Of a stretch of DNA of 18,877 nt, positions 8,048 to 13,501 are shown in pieces. The translations under genes and the position numbers were made by a program. The notes below the pieces were generated by a model that saw nothing but the letters and a program-made list of their open reading frames with translations, made no database searches and was not told the DNA's origin. Positions within the stretch are counted from its first letter, which is position 1, and each line of letters starts with the position of its first letter. Source of the DNA: Nitrososphaeraceae archaeon (GTDB lineage Archaea; Thermoproteota; Nitrososphaeria; Nitrososphaerales; Nitrososphaeraceae); assembly GCA_044870765.1 (NCBI GenBank), contig JBIOZG010000031.1:1-18877 (forward strand). The letters are read 5' to 3'.

Positions 8048-8216
8048 TAAATCGTTAAATTAAATTTTTCAAAGGGTGTTAAAAACCTATCCTACTTGTA
8101 TACAGGCAATTAGATTGATTCTCATATTTTAAACACAATACTAGTAACTAATAAGTCAACTAAATACACAAACAACAGCACAACTTTAATGAAGTGGATT
8201 ATCCTGTAAATTATTT

Positions 8217-8381
8217 ATGAAATGGTTCAATCATGACAAAACAGACGAGGAACCTAAGCTGATAGCTTGCAAGTATTGTGATATGAAGTTTCAGGACAAA
8301 GAACGATTAAAAAGACACACCAGGAAAGCCCACAGTGAAAAAGGTGGAGACATGCCAAAGTTCAATCTTTTTGGTAATTAA
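8217..8381 (+). CDS. C2H2 zinc-finger microprotein (54 aa)
   Basis: Translated by hand: MKWFNHDKTDEEPKLIACKYCDMKFQDKERLKRHTRKAHSEKGGDMPKFNLFGN. Pattern C-x2-C-x3-F-x5-L-x2-H-x4-H. TATA-like CTTTAAT at 8184-8190. Below the ORF track cutoff. Confidence 0.85.
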   Translation: MKWFNHDKTDEEPKLIACKYCDMKFQDKERLKRHTRKAHSEKGGDMPKFNLFGN

Positions 8382-8401: not shown

Positions 8402-9388
8402 ATGTTTCCACTTCATGATGACACCCAGAGAATCCACGGTAGACCGTACGTAACTTACCTGCTAATTGCCATTAATGCTATAGTTTTTTTAGTAGAAGTG
8501 ATTGCTACAGCAAATTTTTCTAATGAAGTGGCAACAAATACTTTGTTCCAAAACTATGGTGCTATTCCATATAAAATACTTCAAGGTGATATATTTTCGG
8601 CTGTAAGTGCAATGTTTCTTCATGGTGGTATAGCTCACCTTATAGGCAATATGTTATTTCTGTTTGTGTTTGGGGACAATATTGAAGACAAATTTGGTCG
8701 AATAAAATTTGTCCTTTTATACATTGGTTGGGGCCTAGCAGCAGCATTCGCCCACAGTTTCTACGCAATGTCTACAGGCGAAGGAGGAATTCCTGCTATT
8801 GGTGCATCAGGAGCAGTTTCAGGAGTGCTAGGAGCATATGTTGTGCTATTTCCAAGAGCAAAGATATTTACGGTAATTGCTGCATTTTTTATTACAACGG
8901 TAAGAATACCGGCCATAGCATACATTCCTTTTTGGTTTGTAATGCAAGTTATCTTCAGTCTACTGAACCAATCTGGTGGTGTGGCCTATGTTGCACATAT
9001 AGGAGGCTTTCTCGCGGGATTGCTAACAGGCTACTTATTGAAGAACATGGTTACTAGAGATGGAATGGTAACACCGCAAATACGATATCCAACAAGTGAT
9101 CGGCAAAAAATTAGTAATATCCCAGATATGACTATTCATACTCAACCAGAGGTCATCAAAGGATCTAATTTTTATGAAATTATTGCCGAAATGCCAGGAC
9201 TGGCGTCCCAGTCAGATATACAGGCAAACTATGACCCGAACTCTCAGAGTATAAGGATATTTACCAGCGGTCCGAGAAAATATGACATAAACGTTAGAAT
9301 ATCTGATATCCAAGATGGAAATATCAAAATTGATCAAATAGAATATCTCAATGGGATAGTACGAATTAGAATATCAAAACAACTTTGA
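8402..9388 (+). CDS. Rhomboid intramembrane serine protease with C-terminal Hsp20/alpha-crystallin-like domain
   Basis: MFLHGGIAHLIGNM, catalytic GASG and AHIGG, multiple transmembrane segments. The soluble ~80-aa C-terminus has EIIAEMPG and YLNGIVRIRISK. Confidence 0.93.
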   Translation: MFPLHDDTQRIHGRPYVTYLLIAINAIVFLVEVIATANFSNEVATNTLFQNYGAIPYKILQGDIFSAVSAMFLHGGIAHLIGNMLFLFVFGDNIEDKFGRIKFVLLYIGWGLAAAFAHSFYAMSTGEGGIPAIGASGAVSGVLGAYVVLFPRAKIFTVIAAFFITTVRIPAIAYIPFWFVMQVIFSLLNQSGGVAYVAHIGGFLAGLLTGYLLKNMVTRDGMVTPQIRYPTSDRQKISNIPDMTIHTQPEVIKGSNFYEIIAEMPGLASQSDIQANYDPNSQSIRIFTSGPRKYDINVRISDIQDGNIKIDQIEYLNGIVRIRISKQL

Positions 9389-9425: not shown

Positions 9426-9869
9426 TTATTTTGTTATTTGATCAATAATTGATGAATCATATAAGCTTCTACTTAATTCCCTGTATTTCTTATTAATAAA
9501 ATCTAGAGATTCAACAAGCTTCTTTGATTTTCCATATTTGAATCGAACTAACTCTTTGTGTTTCCAAAAATGCTTTGCATCTGCAACGTATATAGTCGTA
9601 AAATAATCAGGGCCAATAAGATTATCTGGTAACTTGATATTGTAGGGGAAAAGATATTCTACACCAAACCATTCGTCCCCGTCAGGATAATCATTACCGG
9701 TCATAATATCAAAATAAAGATGTAGTTTATCCTCTACAGTGAATCCTTCGTCTTTTATGAGAGGGTGTCTAATATTAGATTTGTGATAATCAATTTTTAG
9801 CAATTCTACTTCAAAATAAGTTTTTATTATTGCTCGCCTAAAAATTTCATTGGATTCCCTCAGATTCAA
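9426..9869 (-). CDS. Hypothetical protein (147 aa)
   Basis: Long open frame in AT-rich DNA filling the gap between rhomboid and tRNA-Ser. TTG start. No motif recognised. Confidence 0.75.
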   Translation of the reverse strand: MNLRESNEIFRRAIIKTYFEVELLKIDYHKSNIRHPLIKDEGFTVEDKLHLYFDIMTGNDYPDGDEWFGVEYLFPYNIKLPDNLIGPDYFTTIYVADAKHFWKHKELVRFKYGKSKKLVESLDFINKKYRELSRSLYDSSIIDQITK

Positions 9870-12604: not shown

Positions 12605-13501
12605 ATGCACAGTCAGATTATGAGATCTGAGCGAAGGAAGAATTACGAACTTTGTAAAATACCCAATTGCCATCCTTTTGTAAAATGGGCCGGTGGCAAG
12701 GGCCAATTATTACCTCAAATAATGTGTCATATTCCACAAAAGTTTGCCAGATATTTTGAACCATTCCTCGGAGGAGGAGCGGTATTCTTTCATATCGCTC
12801 CCTATAATAGGAACGCAATTCTTTCTGACATAAACGCAGATTTAATTAATGTTTATATAATCATAAGAAATAATGTAGAAGAGCTTATTGCGGCTTTAAA
12901 TTATCACCAAACTGAATACAACAAGTCTCCAAAAAGATACTACTATGAATTACGAGATTCAAAAAAAGCATTTAATAATATAGAGAGAGCTGCACGGTTC
13001 ATAACACTAAATAAAACATGCTACAATGGACTATATCGTGTAAATAAAAACGGTTTGTTTAACGTTCCAATTGGAAGATACAAAAACCCACTCATCTGCG
13101 ATACGAATAACTTAAGGAAAGCGAGTATGGTGCTAAGACACCCTGGGTCCTCATTGAGAATCGGCGATTACAAGAAAATATTAGGAGAAAAAGCCGAGAA
13201 GGATGATTTTGTATATCTTGATCCACCATTTCATCCTGTCAGCAATACTGCAAATTTTACCAGTTATACCAATAATGGTTTTACGCTTGAAGATCAGAAA
13301 GACCTTGCAGTTTTGTTTAAAGAGCTGACAAGAAGAGGATGTAAACTCTTACTTAGTAACTCAAATACTGAGGAAATTAGAAGGCTTTATTCAGACTATT
13401 CTCATTTTACTGAAATAACCAGTGCGAACAGATCTATTAACGCAATTGGGTCTAGAAGGATGGGGCATGAAGAATTGCTAATAAGAAATTACTCGCAATA
13501 G
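12605..13501 (+). CDS. dam: DNA adenine methyltransferase, Dam/DpnM (D12, alpha class)
   Basis: Motifs KWAGGK, EPFLGGGAV, YNGLYRVNKNG.FNVPIG, YLDPPF and LLSNS. Confidence 0.93.
   Translation: MHSQIMRSERRKNYELCKIPNCHPFVKWAGGKGQLLPQIMCHIPQKFARYFEPFLGGGAVFFHIAPYNRNAILSDINADLINVYIIIRNNVEELIAALNYHQTEYNKSPKRYYYELRDSKKAFNNIERAARFITLNKTCYNGLYRVNKNGLFNVPIGRYKNPLICDTNNLRKASMVLRHPGSSLRIGDYKKILGEKAEKDDFVYLDPPFHPVSNTANFTSYTNNGFTLEDQKDLAVLFKELTRRGCKLLLSNSNTEEIRRLYSDYSHFTEITSANRSINAIGSRRMGHEELLIRNYSQ

What the first reader, a model, noticed from the sequence alone, without database searches (positions are those of the whole stretch)
9143..9388. Rhomboid protease carries a C-terminal alpha-crystallin/Hsp20-like domain
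Seen: after the last transmembrane helix and a ~30-aa linker comes QPEVIKGSNFYEIIAEMPGLASQSDIQANYD...RKYDINVRI...IEYLNGIVRIRISK. Known: archaeal small heat-shock proteins have the pattern (D/E)V...V.AE(M/L)PG....I.V...RKY...Y.NGVL.(I/V). Familiar rhomboid appendages are N-terminal cytoplasmic domains, zinc fingers or ubiquitin-binding modules, and I do not know of a characterised Hsp20 fusion. Inference: a chaperone domain that recruits unfolded substrates or small HSP oligomers to the protease, loosely analogous to ERAD-linked rhomboids.
Basis: partly seen in the sequence, partly recalled or inferred. Interest (0 to 1): 0.7.

Follow-up and report, generated by a model that had tools for sequence, protein, structure and literature searches.

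The report
Rhomboid protease with tethered crystallin domain
A membrane-embedded protease of soil ammonia-oxidising archaea carries, on a flexible tether inside the cell, a stripped-down copy of the small-heat-shock-protein fold; the combination is conserved across the family, has not been characterised, and may couple chaperone-type recognition to the cutting of membrane proteins.

Summary
ORF 8402..9388 (+, 328 aa) is a rhomboid protease (Pfam PF01694, E 4.3e-31). Its catalytic residues S136, H199, H74, H79 and N83 are invariant. A poorly conserved, disordered 33-residue basic linker follows. Residues 248-326 then form a seven-stranded beta-sandwich (AlphaFold2 pLDDT 86.8). All 8 best PDB matches at E<=1e-3 are alpha-crystallin domains of small heat-shock proteins. 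The top match is the S. solfataricus Hsp20.1 ACD (TM 0.71/0.72).

Sequence support is weak. NCBIfam archaeal Hsp20 gives E 1e-5, far below its cut-off. Pfam HSP20 gives no hit.

The domain is minimal: it has no N-terminal region, no beta6 loop and no C-terminal IxI tail. It is as constrained as the protease core (dN/dS 0.11 vs 0.14; linker 0.30). It shares one ORF with both catalytic motifs in 77 of 80 Nitrososphaeraceae-type loci. Charge distribution and rhomboid geometry place it in the cytoplasm.

A 54-aa C2H2 zinc-finger gene sits directly upstream in 76 of 80 loci.

Function is inferred, not shown. I favour a tethered client or partner-binding adaptor for membrane-protein quality control. 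This is a new variant of a known kind. Some database names already flag the fusion, but my searches found no paper on it.

The parts
8402..9388 (+). Whole gene: rhomboid protease with C-terminal ACD-like domain, 328 aa plus stop codon
   Evidence: ORF list and translation. Full-length relatives were found in 75 of 80 loci with the same N-terminal motif.
8402..8446 (+). Conserved cytoplasmic N-terminal segment MFPLHDDTQRIHGRP (residues 1-15)
   Evidence: M1 F2 P3 D6 R10 H12 G13 P15 are invariant in 32 of 32 sequences. Mean pairwise identity is 0.87.
8447..9043 (+). Six-helix rhomboid core (residues 16-214). S136 (8807-8809) lies in GASG, H199 (8996-8998) in AHIGG, and H74/H79/N83 on TM2.
   Evidence: Pfam PF01694 E 4.3e-31. 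These residues are invariant in 32 of 32 sequences. The full-length model matches GlpG structures with TM (target) 0.60-0.74.
9044..9142 (+). Basic, poorly conserved, predicted-disordered linker (residues 215-247), with a short conserved motif near its end (family consensus RPxIEDV, about residues 237-243)
   Evidence: pLDDT is below 50 for residues 219-245. Mean pairwise identity is 0.30 and dN/dS 0.295. Net charge is +3.6. The motif is visible.
9143..9385 (+). Minimal alpha-crystallin-like (HSP20-like) beta-sandwich, residues 248-328. The seven strands are 250-253, 257-263, 273-278, 283-288, 295-299, 307-316 and 319-327.
   Evidence: AlphaFold2 pLDDT 86.8. Foldseek top hit 4rzk_B, E 7e-5, TM 0.71/0.72. 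NCBIfam Hsp20 E 1.1e-5. Seventeen residues are invariant. dN/dS is 0.108.
8217..8381 (+). Conserved upstream partner gene: a 54-aa one-finger C2H2 zinc-finger protein with a conserved C-terminal tail (family consensus DMPNxNPFGF). It lies 20 nt upstream of the rhomboid start.
   Evidence: It is present upstream on the same strand in 76 of 80 loci. C18 C21 H34 H39 are invariant. Its profile matches classical C2H2 fingers in the PDB at E 3.8e-12. Physical or functional linkage to the rhomboid is not shown.
8182..8190 (+). Promoter-like AACTTTAAT box ending 27 nt before the zinc-finger start codon
   Evidence: The exact motif occurs in 21 of 28 upstream regions examined, mostly 24-28 nt from the start codon used. 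Reading it as an archaeal TATA/BRE element is an inference.

Best explanation
SHOWN OR STRONGLY SUPPORTED. The gene encodes a catalytically intact six-helix rhomboid intramembrane serine protease. Its last helix is followed by a flexible, basic linker of about 33 residues and then a compact seven-stranded HSP20-like beta-sandwich most similar to archaeal sHSP alpha-crystallin domains. The fusion is fixed across Nitrososphaeraceae-type archaea, and the added domain is as constrained as the catalytic core.

INFERRED. (1) The domain sits in the cytoplasm. The catalytic Ser and His must lie at the outer ends of parallel helices TM4 and TM6, and the loops follow the positive-inside rule. (2) It is a bare ACD without the N-terminal region, the beta6 loop or the IxI tail, so it cannot build a canonical sHSP oligomer. 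It most likely works as a single tethered binding module. (3) The mechanism I favour is as follows. The tethered ACD sweeps the cytoplasmic face around the protease. It binds exposed hydrophobic or non-native cytoplasmic segments of membrane proteins, or IxI-type peptide motifs through its beta4/beta8 edge. This raises the local concentration of those clients so that their transmembrane segments enter the rhomboid active site. The enzyme would thereby act as a stress-linked membrane-protein quality-control protease. This is functionally analogous to the way the cytosolic domain of B. subtilis YqgP facilitates substrate cleavage and is needed for its FtsH-adaptor role.
For: Rhomboid identity:
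- Pfam E 4.3e-31.
- S136, H199, H74, H79 and N83 are invariant in 32 of 32 sequences.
- The full-length model matches GlpG with TM (target) 0.60-0.74.

ACD fold:
- pLDDT 86.8 and pTM 0.77.
- All 8 PDB matches at E<=1e-3 are sHSPs; the top is the Sulfolobus Hsp20.1 ACD (TM 0.71/0.72, rmsd 2.4 A over 84 columns).
- The same chain is recovered at rank 8 with the full-length model.
- NCBIfam archaeal Hsp20 gives E 1.1e-5 for the window and hits 4 of 11 family members.

Constraint and fixation:
- dN/dS is 0.108 for the ACD, 0.137 for the core and 0.295 for the linker, over 248 pairs.
- 77 of 80 loci carry both catalytic motifs in the same ORF as the domain.
- The core tree and the ACD tree each recover the window's clade with one change.

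Flexible tether: pLDDT is below 50 for residues 219-245.

Cytoplasmic side: net charge is +3.6 for the linker and +2.9 for loop 4-5, against -2.0 for L1, -1.0 for loop 3-4 and -0.6 for L5.

Precedents:
- The YqgP cytosolic domain facilitates substrate cleavage and is needed for its FtsH-adaptor role; the authors propose that extramembrane domains underlie the diverse functions of bacterial rhomboids (passages read in PMC7231995).
- A review reports that Hsp20.1 dimers protect substrate from heat-induced aggregation and that archaeal sHSPs bind membranes (passages read in PMC9133787).
Against: - No experiment or expression data bear on function.
- Sequence-level membership in HSP20 is weak. Pfam gives no hit at E<=10. 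PDB sequence searches give only E 0.28-0.8 for sHSPs. hhalign against E. coli IbpA/IbpB gives probability 2% over 22 columns. The ESM Atlas gave no usable hit.
- The domain lacks the N-terminal region, which in sHSPs is a main client-binding part (recalled knowledge). It also lacks the elements needed for oligomers, so classical holdase behaviour cannot be assumed.
- CS/p23 domains, which are specific protein-protein adaptors and not holdases, match the model almost as well (9q8o_B TM 0.68).
- The full-length model is only moderate (pLDDT 71; the four other models scored 51-58). Segment 154-178 is uncertain, so the six-helix count rests partly on geometry arguments.
- Rhomboids cut transmembrane segments. 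A cytoplasmic chaperone-like module is not obviously needed for that.
Confidence: 0.45

Rival explanations
1. The sandwich is a specific docking module of the CS/p23 kind and not a holdase. It would bind one defined partner, such as the co-located C2H2 zinc-finger protein, the thermosome, the proteasome/AAA machinery or LonB. It would either hand cleaved fragments on or receive a regulatory signal.
For: - CS domains of Sgt1 are among the structural matches (9q8o_B TM 0.68; 2xcm and 2jki). Entry 2xcm is described as a complex of the Sgt1 CS domain with the RAR1 CHORD2 domain.
- The 54-aa zinc-finger gene lies directly upstream in 76 of 80 loci, while other neighbours are kept in only 9-25 of 80.
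- The zinc-finger protein has an invariant C-terminal N-x-F-G tail that looks like a short docking motif.
- Haloarchaeal rhomboid RhoII carries an N-terminal AN1 zinc finger (passage read in PMC4343526), a second link between archaeal rhomboids and zinc fingers.
- Invariant surface-type charged residues (E259, E263, R321, R323) suit a specific interface.
Against: - No Pfam CS hit.
- sHSP ACDs outrank CS domains in the fold search.
- The only sequence-level signal is to archaeal Hsp20.
- Adjacency is not binding.
- In 16 of 28 upstream regions examined, a second promoter-like box precedes the rhomboid gene. Co-transcription is therefore not assured outside the window's clade.
Confidence: 0.25
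2. The ACD is a self-association module that dimerises or clusters the protease, or folds back on it to gate activity. On this reading it regulates the enzyme and does not select clients.
For: - ACDs are the dimer building blocks of sHSPs (abstract of PMC10778692 in the listing).
- The closest structure, the Hsp20.1 ACD, comes from a paper titled 'an unusual dimeric Hsp20.1' (reference list seen).
- The long flexible linker would allow pairing between neighbouring molecules.
Against: - The beta5-beta7 connection is only 6 residues (289-294), so the strand-swapped beta6 dimer of non-metazoan sHSPs is impossible (dimer modes are recalled knowledge).
- Position 296, five residues before P301, where I recall the conserved dimer-interface Arg of sHSPs, holds M/L/I. 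This alignment is by eye.
- In the full-length model the domain does not pack on the core with confidence.
Confidence: 0.12
3. The domain is a membrane or heat sensor. Like some free sHSPs it binds destabilised lipid bilayers, and it thereby tunes rhomboid activity to membrane state.
For: A review of archaeal sHSPs reports that Sulfolobus Hsp20 dimers bind and stabilise membranes under heat stress (passages read in PMC9133787). The tether holds the domain within about 30 residues of the bilayer.
Against: I saw no amphipathic or lipid-binding feature. The domain's net charge is slightly negative (-0.8), which does not favour binding to anionic surfaces. No data were available on archaeal tetraether lipid binding.
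Confidence: 0.08
4. The resemblance to sHSPs is only a generic small beta-sandwich, or the domain is an evolutionary relic with no chaperone-related role.
For: - No Pfam HSP20 hit.
- The profile search of the PDB ranks designed Ig-like proteins (E 0.004) above sHSPs (E 0.8).
- Three Ig-repeat proteins appear among the 18 representative hits.
Against: - Foldseek probability is 1.00, and all 8 matches at E<=1e-3 are sHSPs.
- NCBIfam Hsp20 gives E 1e-5 over the whole domain.
- The family consensus shows LP and NG(I/V) motifs where sHSPs have them (sHSP motifs are recalled knowledge).
- A dN/dS of 0.108 and 17 invariant residues exclude a decaying relic.
Confidence: 0.05

Closest known systems
Bacillus subtilis rhomboid YqgP (GluP) with its cytosolic N-terminal domain
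   Same: An active prokaryotic rhomboid whose soluble cytoplasmic appendage controls which substrate is cut and when, and which takes part in membrane-protein quality control (passages read in PMC7231995).
   Different: In YqgP the appendage is N-terminal, binds Mn2+/Zn2+ and showed no similarity to known structures. YqgP also has an extracellular TPR domain and works with FtsH. Here the appendage is C-terminal, HSP20-like and archaeal, and no partner protease is known.
Haloferax volcanii RhoII (rhomboid with N-terminal AN1 zinc finger)
   Same: An archaeal six-helix rhomboid with an accessory cytoplasmic module. A zinc finger is associated with the protease (passages read in PMC4343526 and PMC9263693).
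   Different: In RhoII the zinc finger is fused and of the AN1 type, and there is no ACD. Here the zinc finger is a separate C2H2 gene product, and the fused module is an ACD.
Sulfolobus solfataricus Hsp20.1 alpha-crystallin domain (PDB 4rzk)
   Same: The best structural match (TM 0.71/0.72, rmsd 2.4 A, 84 columns, 19% identity). It is of similar size, 87 residues.
   Different: Hsp20.1 is a free cytosolic sHSP with N- and C-terminal regions that forms oligomers and dimers. The window's domain is fused to a membrane protease, ends two residues after the last strand and has no flanking sHSP regions.
CS/p23 domains (e.g. Sgt1 CS binding Hsp90 and the RAR1 CHORD2 domain)
   Same: The same HSP20-like sandwich without a beta6 loop, used as a monomeric protein-protein adaptor. 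Structural matches reach TM 0.58-0.68.
   Different: There is no sequence or Pfam signal for CS. These domains rank below the sHSPs, and they are eukaryotic co-chaperone modules.
Mammalian RHBDL4 and the Derlins (ERAD-linked rhomboid-like proteins)
   Same: A rhomboid-fold protein that uses a cytosolic recognition element to select faulty membrane proteins. This is recalled knowledge; the ERAD analogy is drawn in PMC7231995.
   Different: Recognition there is through ubiquitin-interacting motifs and p97 recruitment. There is no chaperone fold, and no homology of the accessory parts.

Membership tests
Rhomboid intramembrane serine proteases (Pfam PF01694, MEROPS S54) | Match to the family profile above its curated cut-off | tested here: met
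   108.5 bits against a cut-off of 22.6, E 4.3e-31, residues 63-213
Rhomboid intramembrane serine proteases (Pfam PF01694, MEROPS S54) | Catalytic Ser in GxSG (TM4) and His in TM6, plus the TM2 H-x4-H-x3-N motif (motif definitions recalled from GlpG work) | tested here: met
   G134-A-S136-G, A198-H199-I-G-G, and H74/H79/N83 are all invariant in 32 of 32 aligned sequences. Both catalytic motifs occur in 77 of 80 loci.
Rhomboid intramembrane serine proteases (Pfam PF01694, MEROPS S54) | Six-helix rhomboid fold | tested here: met
   The full-length AlphaFold2 model (pLDDT 71) matches E. coli and H. influenzae GlpG with TM (target) 0.60-0.74. There are 36 matches at E<=1e-3. Segment 154-178 has low confidence.
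Rhomboid intramembrane serine proteases (Pfam PF01694, MEROPS S54) | Intramembrane proteolytic activity | not testable with these tools
   Needs a cleavage assay.
Small heat-shock proteins / HSP20 (Pfam PF00011; NCBIfam NF041800) | Match to the family profiles at their curated cut-offs | tested here: not met
   Pfam gives no HSP20 hit at E<=10 for the window or for any of 11 family members. NF041800 scores 21.6-25.4 bits against a cut-off of 140, although E is 1e-5 over profile positions 78-150 of 162.
Small heat-shock proteins / HSP20 (Pfam PF00011; NCBIfam NF041800) | Alpha-crystallin-domain beta-sandwich fold | tested here: met
   Foldseek finds 8 of 8 matches at E<=1e-3 to be sHSP chains. 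The best is 4rzk_B, E 7e-5, TM 0.71/0.72.
Small heat-shock proteins / HSP20 (Pfam PF00011; NCBIfam NF041800) | Variable N-terminal region and C-terminal extension with an I-x-I/V anchoring motif (definition recalled; the IXI/V motif is also named in the abstract of PMC12925178) | tested here: not met
   The domain is preceded by the linker to TM6. The protein ends 2 residues after the last strand, and most relatives end 0-3 residues after the conserved K326.
Small heat-shock proteins / HSP20 (Pfam PF00011; NCBIfam NF041800) | Beta6-containing loop used for dimerisation in non-metazoan sHSPs (recalled) | tested here: not met
   Only 6 residues (289-294) join the fourth and fifth strands of the model, which has seven strands in all.
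Small heat-shock proteins / HSP20 (Pfam PF00011; NCBIfam NF041800) | ATP-independent holdase activity and oligomer formation | not testable with these tools
   Needs aggregation-suppression and SEC-MALS assays.
CS/p23 domains (HSP20-like superfamily) | Fold match and family profile match | tested here: inconclusive
   Fold matches are 9q8o_B TM 0.68 (rank 21), 2xcm_C and 2jki_S. These rank below the sHSPs, and no Pfam CS hit appears at E<=10.

The most novel reading that the evidence does not exclude
The rhomboid-ACD protein and the small C2H2 zinc-finger protein encoded directly upstream form a dedicated archaeal module for membrane-protein quality control. The chaperone-fold domain, tethered to an intramembrane protease, selects damaged or orphan membrane proteins for cleavage. 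The zinc-finger protein acts as regulator, adaptor or hand-over factor. This would be a prokaryotic counterpart of ERAD-type client selection, built from an sHSP fold instead of ubiquitin recognition.
Probability: 0.15. Interest if true: 0.8.

Novelty: new variant of a known kind. Interest (0 to 1): 0.6.

Why it matters
Few prokaryotic rhomboids have a known substrate or a known way of choosing one, and archaeal ones are almost unstudied (reviews read). Here an accessory domain of a recognisable fold has been kept under strong selection across a whole family of environmentally important soil ammonia oxidisers. That gives a concrete, testable handle on client selection.

If the tethered ACD binds non-native proteins, it would show a chaperone fold wired directly to an intramembrane protease. 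It would also extend the emerging view of rhomboids as quality-control enzymes to archaea, which as I recall generally lack FtsH. The domain is also a natural minimal ACD (no N-terminal region, no beta6 loop, no IxI tail). That makes it useful for asking what the bare sandwich can bind.

The conserved pairing with a one-finger C2H2 protein adds a second uncharacterised component. Relatives named from the cultured species Nitrososphaera viennensis exist for the zinc-finger protein, so biochemical follow-up is feasible.

Tried and rejected
- Complex prediction. I folded the linker plus ACD (A3, residues 215-328) with the zinc-finger protein (A4). The verdict was 'no answer' (score 0.00, mark 0.32, partner fold uncertain). 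It counts neither for nor against binding. Only one job was allowed, so the ACD homodimer and the full-length protein with the zinc-finger protein were not tried.
- Pfam on the C-terminal piece and on 11 family members found nothing relevant.
- PDB sequence searches with one sequence and with a profile gave sHSPs only at E 0.28-0.84. Designed Ig-like proteins ranked higher over partial stretches.
- hhalign of the family profile against E. coli IbpA/IbpB matched only the last two strands, with probability 2%.
- The ESM Atlas gave no usable hit and holds no model.
- I searched for free-standing relatives. Among 1.84 billion representatives there were 18 hits at E<=1e-3. Six carry a Pfam rhomboid match. 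Three are large Ig-repeat proteins matched over short stretches, which I take as spurious. Of the other nine, eight are short or partial pieces that look like the C-termini of the same fusion, and one (P0130) is the oddity described next.
- A profile search of 42-156-aa proteins gave 56 hits at E<=10 among 867 candidates. The 18 whose sequences I read are fragments of this family or internal-start calls, plus P0130. No canonical sHSP appeared.
- P0130 (147 aa, from a 967-nt contig) has the domain behind a Cys-rich N-terminus. I tested it as a possible zinc-finger-ACD fusion, but hhalign against the zinc-finger profile gave probability 1%. Rejected.
- The listing of cluster members could not be run because the database was switched off. 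Accession-level names for the window's own cluster are therefore unchecked.
- I rejected a seventh transmembrane helix in residues 155-175. The catalytic Ser and His need an odd number of crossings between TM4 and TM6, 42 residues cannot hold three, and the segment carries R152, K154 and R168.
Full report
**What is there.** The window (GC 0.32-0.42) is ordinary chromosomal DNA of a Nitrososphaeraceae-type archaeon.
- The genes around the finding are housekeeping genes: aconitase-family large and small subunits, a proteasome subunit, an ERCC4 nuclease, a phosphoglucomutase-family protein, an AIR-synthase-related protein, ribosomal protein S11, a PadR regulator, a D12 methyltransferase, an ADP-forming CoA ligase and a DEAD-box helicase. 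There are also tRNA-Thr and tRNA-Ser genes.
- The ORF 8402..9388 (+) encodes 328 residues.

**The protease part.**
- Pfam Rhomboid matches residues 63-213 at E 4.3e-31.
- I aligned 32 full-length relatives, which are 49-84% identical to the window protein. G134-A-S136-G, A198-H199-x-G-G and H74/H79/N83 are invariant in all of them.
- The full-length AlphaFold2 model is of moderate quality: pLDDT 71, with the other four models at 51-58.
- It shows helices at 16-36, 77-98, 100-124, 135-149, 176-188 and 193-219. It superposes on GlpG structures with TM (target) 0.60-0.74, with 36 matches at E<=1e-3.
- By these criteria the enzyme should be active.

**The appended domain.**
- Residues 240-328 were folded with a 22-row alignment. 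The model has pLDDT 86.8 and pTM 0.77.
- It has seven strands, at 250-253, 257-263, 273-278, 283-288, 295-299, 307-316 and 319-327.
- Foldseek against the PDB returns 8 matches at E<=1e-3, and every one is a small heat-shock protein. They are Sulfolobus Hsp20.1 ACD (4rzk_B, E 7e-5, TM 0.71/0.72, rmsd 2.4 A), StHsp14.0, SsHsp14.1 and S. pombe Hsp16.0.
- Further down come a phage sHSP, yeast Hsp26 and bacterial HspA. From rank 21 onward come CS domains of Sgt1, with TM up to 0.68.
- The full-length model recovers 4rzk_B at rank 8 among the GlpG entries.

**Sequence-level evidence is thin.**
- NCBIfam NF041800 (archaeal Hsp20) aligns residues 251-327 to profile positions 78-150 of 162 at E 1.1e-5. 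The score is 25 bits against a cut-off of 140. It hits 4 of 11 diverse family members.
- Pfam HSP20 is silent at E<=10.
- PDB sequence searches give sHSPs only at E 0.28-0.84.
- hhalign against E. coli IbpA/IbpB matches just the last two strands, with probability 2%.
- The ESM Atlas gave nothing.
- I conclude that this is a divergent member of the HSP20-like fold, closest to archaeal ACDs. It is not a full sHSP.

**How it differs from an sHSP.**
- The sandwich is preceded by the tether to TM6 and not by an sHSP N-terminal region.
- It ends two residues after the last strand, and in most relatives 0-3 residues after K326. There is therefore no C-terminal extension and no IxI motif.
- Only six residues (289-294) join the fourth and fifth strands. 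Non-metazoan sHSPs carry the beta6 dimerisation loop at that position (sHSP anatomy is recalled knowledge).
- The family consensus keeps sHSP-like landmarks...KLPD... before the penultimate strand and YLNGI(A/V)RIRL in the last.

**Conservation and spread.**
- A search of the 90%-clustered protein set with residues 225-328 gave 111 proteins, all carrying the rhomboid Pfam domain. All but one are 70-94% identical. Sources name them as Nitrososphaeraceae or Nitrososphaerota.
- Several JGI names already read 'rhomboid family serine protease/HSP20 family molecular chaperone IbpA'.
- HMMER over 1.84 billion representatives found 18 proteins at E<=1e-3. Six have a rhomboid Pfam match and three are Ig-repeat proteins that I take as spurious. 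Of the other nine, eight are short pieces of the same fusion and one is P0130, a 147-aa oddity.
- A scan of one genome per species found 117 relatives, of which 80 were kept. By title, 65 of the 80 are Nitrososphaeraceae. Seventy are Nitrososphaerales, three are labelled Nitrosopumilales by their submitters, and seven have no order given.
- In 77 of 80 loci the domain shares an ORF with both catalytic motifs. L005 has neither motif in a 141-aa frame, and L051 and L079 keep only the His motif in shortened frames. These three may be frameshifts or assembly breaks.
- The scan used the single peptide pattern [YV][LI]NGI[VAI]R[IV]R[LI]. More divergent versions would have been missed.
- Mean pairwise identity is 0.65 for the core, 0.30 for the linker and 0.60 for the ACD.
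- Nei-Gojobori dN/dS, over the 248 pairs with dS between 0.1 and 1.2 among 76 coding sequences, is 0.137 for the core, 0.295 for the linker and 0.108 for the ACD.
- Trees built separately from the core and from the ACD each place the window's 22-member clade on one side of a single branch. Each also separates that clade from Nitrososphaera with one change. This agrees with a single old fusion inherited vertically, although it does not prove it.

**Side of the membrane.**
- The catalytic Ser (start of TM4) and His (start of TM6) must sit together near the outer leaflet. An odd number of crossings therefore lies between them, and 42 residues allow only one. TM6 then ends in the cytoplasm, as in GlpG (established topology, recalled).
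- Across the 32 sequences the putative outer loops are net negative: L1 -2.0, loop 3-4 -1.0 and L5 -0.6.
- The putative inner loops are net positive: loop 4-5 +2.9 and the linker +3.6.
- The linker is predicted to be disordered, with pLDDT below 50 for residues 219-245. The ACD is thus a cytoplasmic domain on a leash of about 30 residues. This is inferred and has not been measured.

**A conserved neighbour.**
- Twenty nucleotides upstream, on the same strand, lies a 54-codon ORF (8217..8381).
- tblastn finds it directly upstream of the rhomboid gene in 76 of 80 loci. By contrast, S11 is kept in 24, the AIR-synthase-like gene in 22, the downstream 147-aa ORF in 25 and PadR in 9.
- Of the four loci without it, three are cut by contig ends (L051, L071, L073). 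One, L033, has no C2H2 ORF within 1 kb upstream.
- The gaps between the two genes are 18-84 nt in 72 of the 76 loci and 167-367 nt in the other four.
- The protein is a single classical finger, C-x2-C-x12-H-x4-H, with all four ligands invariant. It has a conserved N-terminal hydrophobic-basic stretch and a conserved tail...GGDMPNxNPFGF.
- Its profile matches CTCF-type fingers in the PDB at E 3.8e-12. More weakly, it matches two small archaeal C2H2 proteins deposited with large assemblies: 6skg_Bo at E 6.8e-5 and 9qf4_Bk at E 1.2e-3.
- A search found 239 relatives at E<=1e-3, of which the best 120 are listed. All named ones are Nitrososphaera, Nitrososphaeraceae, Thaumarchaeota or Thermoproteota, including N. 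viennensis.
- An AACTTTAAT box ends 27 nt before the zinc-finger start codon in the window. It is exact in 21 of 28 upstream regions examined.
- A second box, AGACTT[AT][AT]T, lies 30-37 nt before the rhomboid start in 16 of 28 regions. It is absent in the window and its four closest clade members in that sample.
- Co-transcription is therefore plausible here but not general.
- Whether the two proteins touch is unknown.

**Mechanism.** I favour the reading that the tethered minimal ACD is a binding module that brings clients or partners to the protease.
- The strongest arguments are as follows: (1) its fold; (2) selection on it as tight as on the catalytic core; (3) the flexible tether; and (4) the YqgP precedent. 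The cytosolic domain of YqgP facilitates substrate cleavage and is needed for its FtsH-adaptor role, and its authors propose that the varied extramembrane domains of rhomboids explain their diverse roles.
- A review reports that dimeric Sulfolobus Hsp20.1 protects substrates and that archaeal sHSPs act at membranes.
- Against a classical holdase role, the regions that sHSPs use for oligomerisation are missing, as is much of their client-binding region. CS/p23-type adaptors also fit the model nearly as well.
- I therefore give the client-capture model 0.45 and a specific-partner docking model 0.25. Self-association or gating gets 0.12, membrane sensing 0.08, and 'generic sandwich or relic' 0.05.

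**Comparison with what is known.**
- In working principle the closest systems are YqgP, haloarchaeal RhoII with its AN1 zinc finger and, by recall, RHBDL4 and the Derlins.
- In structure the closest is the Hsp20.1 ACD.
- The protein is a member of the rhomboid family. It is not a member of the sHSP family as defined by profiles and by flanking regions, but it carries an ACD-type fold.

**Novelty.**
- Ten full-text searches combined rhomboid with Hsp20, alpha-crystallin domain, small heat shock protein, Nitrososphaera, ammonia-oxidizing archaea, domain architecture and related terms. None returned a paper describing this fusion.
- Subscription journals and InterPro were not searchable, and preprint supplements were closed.
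- Automatic annotation has noticed the fusion.
- I rate it a new variant of a known kind, of moderate to good interest. It offers a testable handle on how a prokaryotic rhomboid picks its clients, in an ecologically important and cultivable lineage.

Noticed in passing
window 8217-8381 (+); the same position in L001-L080: A 54-aa single-finger C2H2 zinc-finger protein gene sits directly upstream of the rhomboid-ACD gene in 76 of 80 loci, although the wider neighbourhood changes. The tail GGDMPNxNPFGF and the N-terminal hydrophobic-basic stretch are conserved.
   Followed up: partly
window 8182-8190 (+), and upstream of the rhomboid start in Nitrososphaera-type loci: Two conserved promoter-like boxes. 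AACTTTAAT lies about 27 nt before the zinc-finger start (21 of 28 regions). AGACTT[AT][AT]T lies 30-37 nt before the rhomboid start (16 of 28 regions) but is absent in the window's clade.
   Followed up: partly
window 9110-9130 (about residues 237-243) and the A3 alignment: Inside the otherwise variable linker there is a short conserved motif (family consensus R-P-x-I-E-D-V; NIPDM in the window), about 6 residues before the first strand of the ACD. Its role is unknown. It could be a docking peptide.
   Followed up: no
window 8402-8446: The first 15 residues (MFPxHDDxxRxHGRP) are the most conserved part of the protein, with mean pairwise identity 0.87. They are predicted to be cytoplasmic and of low model confidence.
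   Followed up: no
protein P0130 (147 aa, from a 967-nt contig): This is the only relative of the domain without visible rhomboid sequence. A Cys-rich N-terminus and a Pro-rich spacer precede the sandwich. It is not related to the C2H2 neighbour (hhalign probability 1%).
   Followed up: partly
PDB chains 6skg_Bo and 9qf4_Bk, against the zinc-finger profile A4: The zinc-finger profile also matches two small archaeal C2H2 proteins (47 and 64 aa) at E 6.8e-5 and 1.2e-3. I recall 6skg as an archaeal ribosome entry, but this was not checked. The match covers only the finger.
   Followed up: no
window 9426-9869 (-): A 147-aa ORF convergent with the rhomboid gene has no Pfam or NCBIfam family. It is kept in 25 of 80 loci, all within or near the window's clade.
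   Followed up: no
loci L005, L051, L079: In these three genomes the frame carrying the ACD is shortened and lacks one or both catalytic motifs. Several short 'HSP20' gene calls in the protein sets start at internal Met codons within TM5 or the linker. These are probably frameshifts or assembly errors, not free-standing ACD genes.
   Followed up: partly
window 12605-13501 (+): A D12-class N6-adenine DNA methyltransferase (Pfam E 3.2e-67). No restriction partner was looked for.
   Followed up: no
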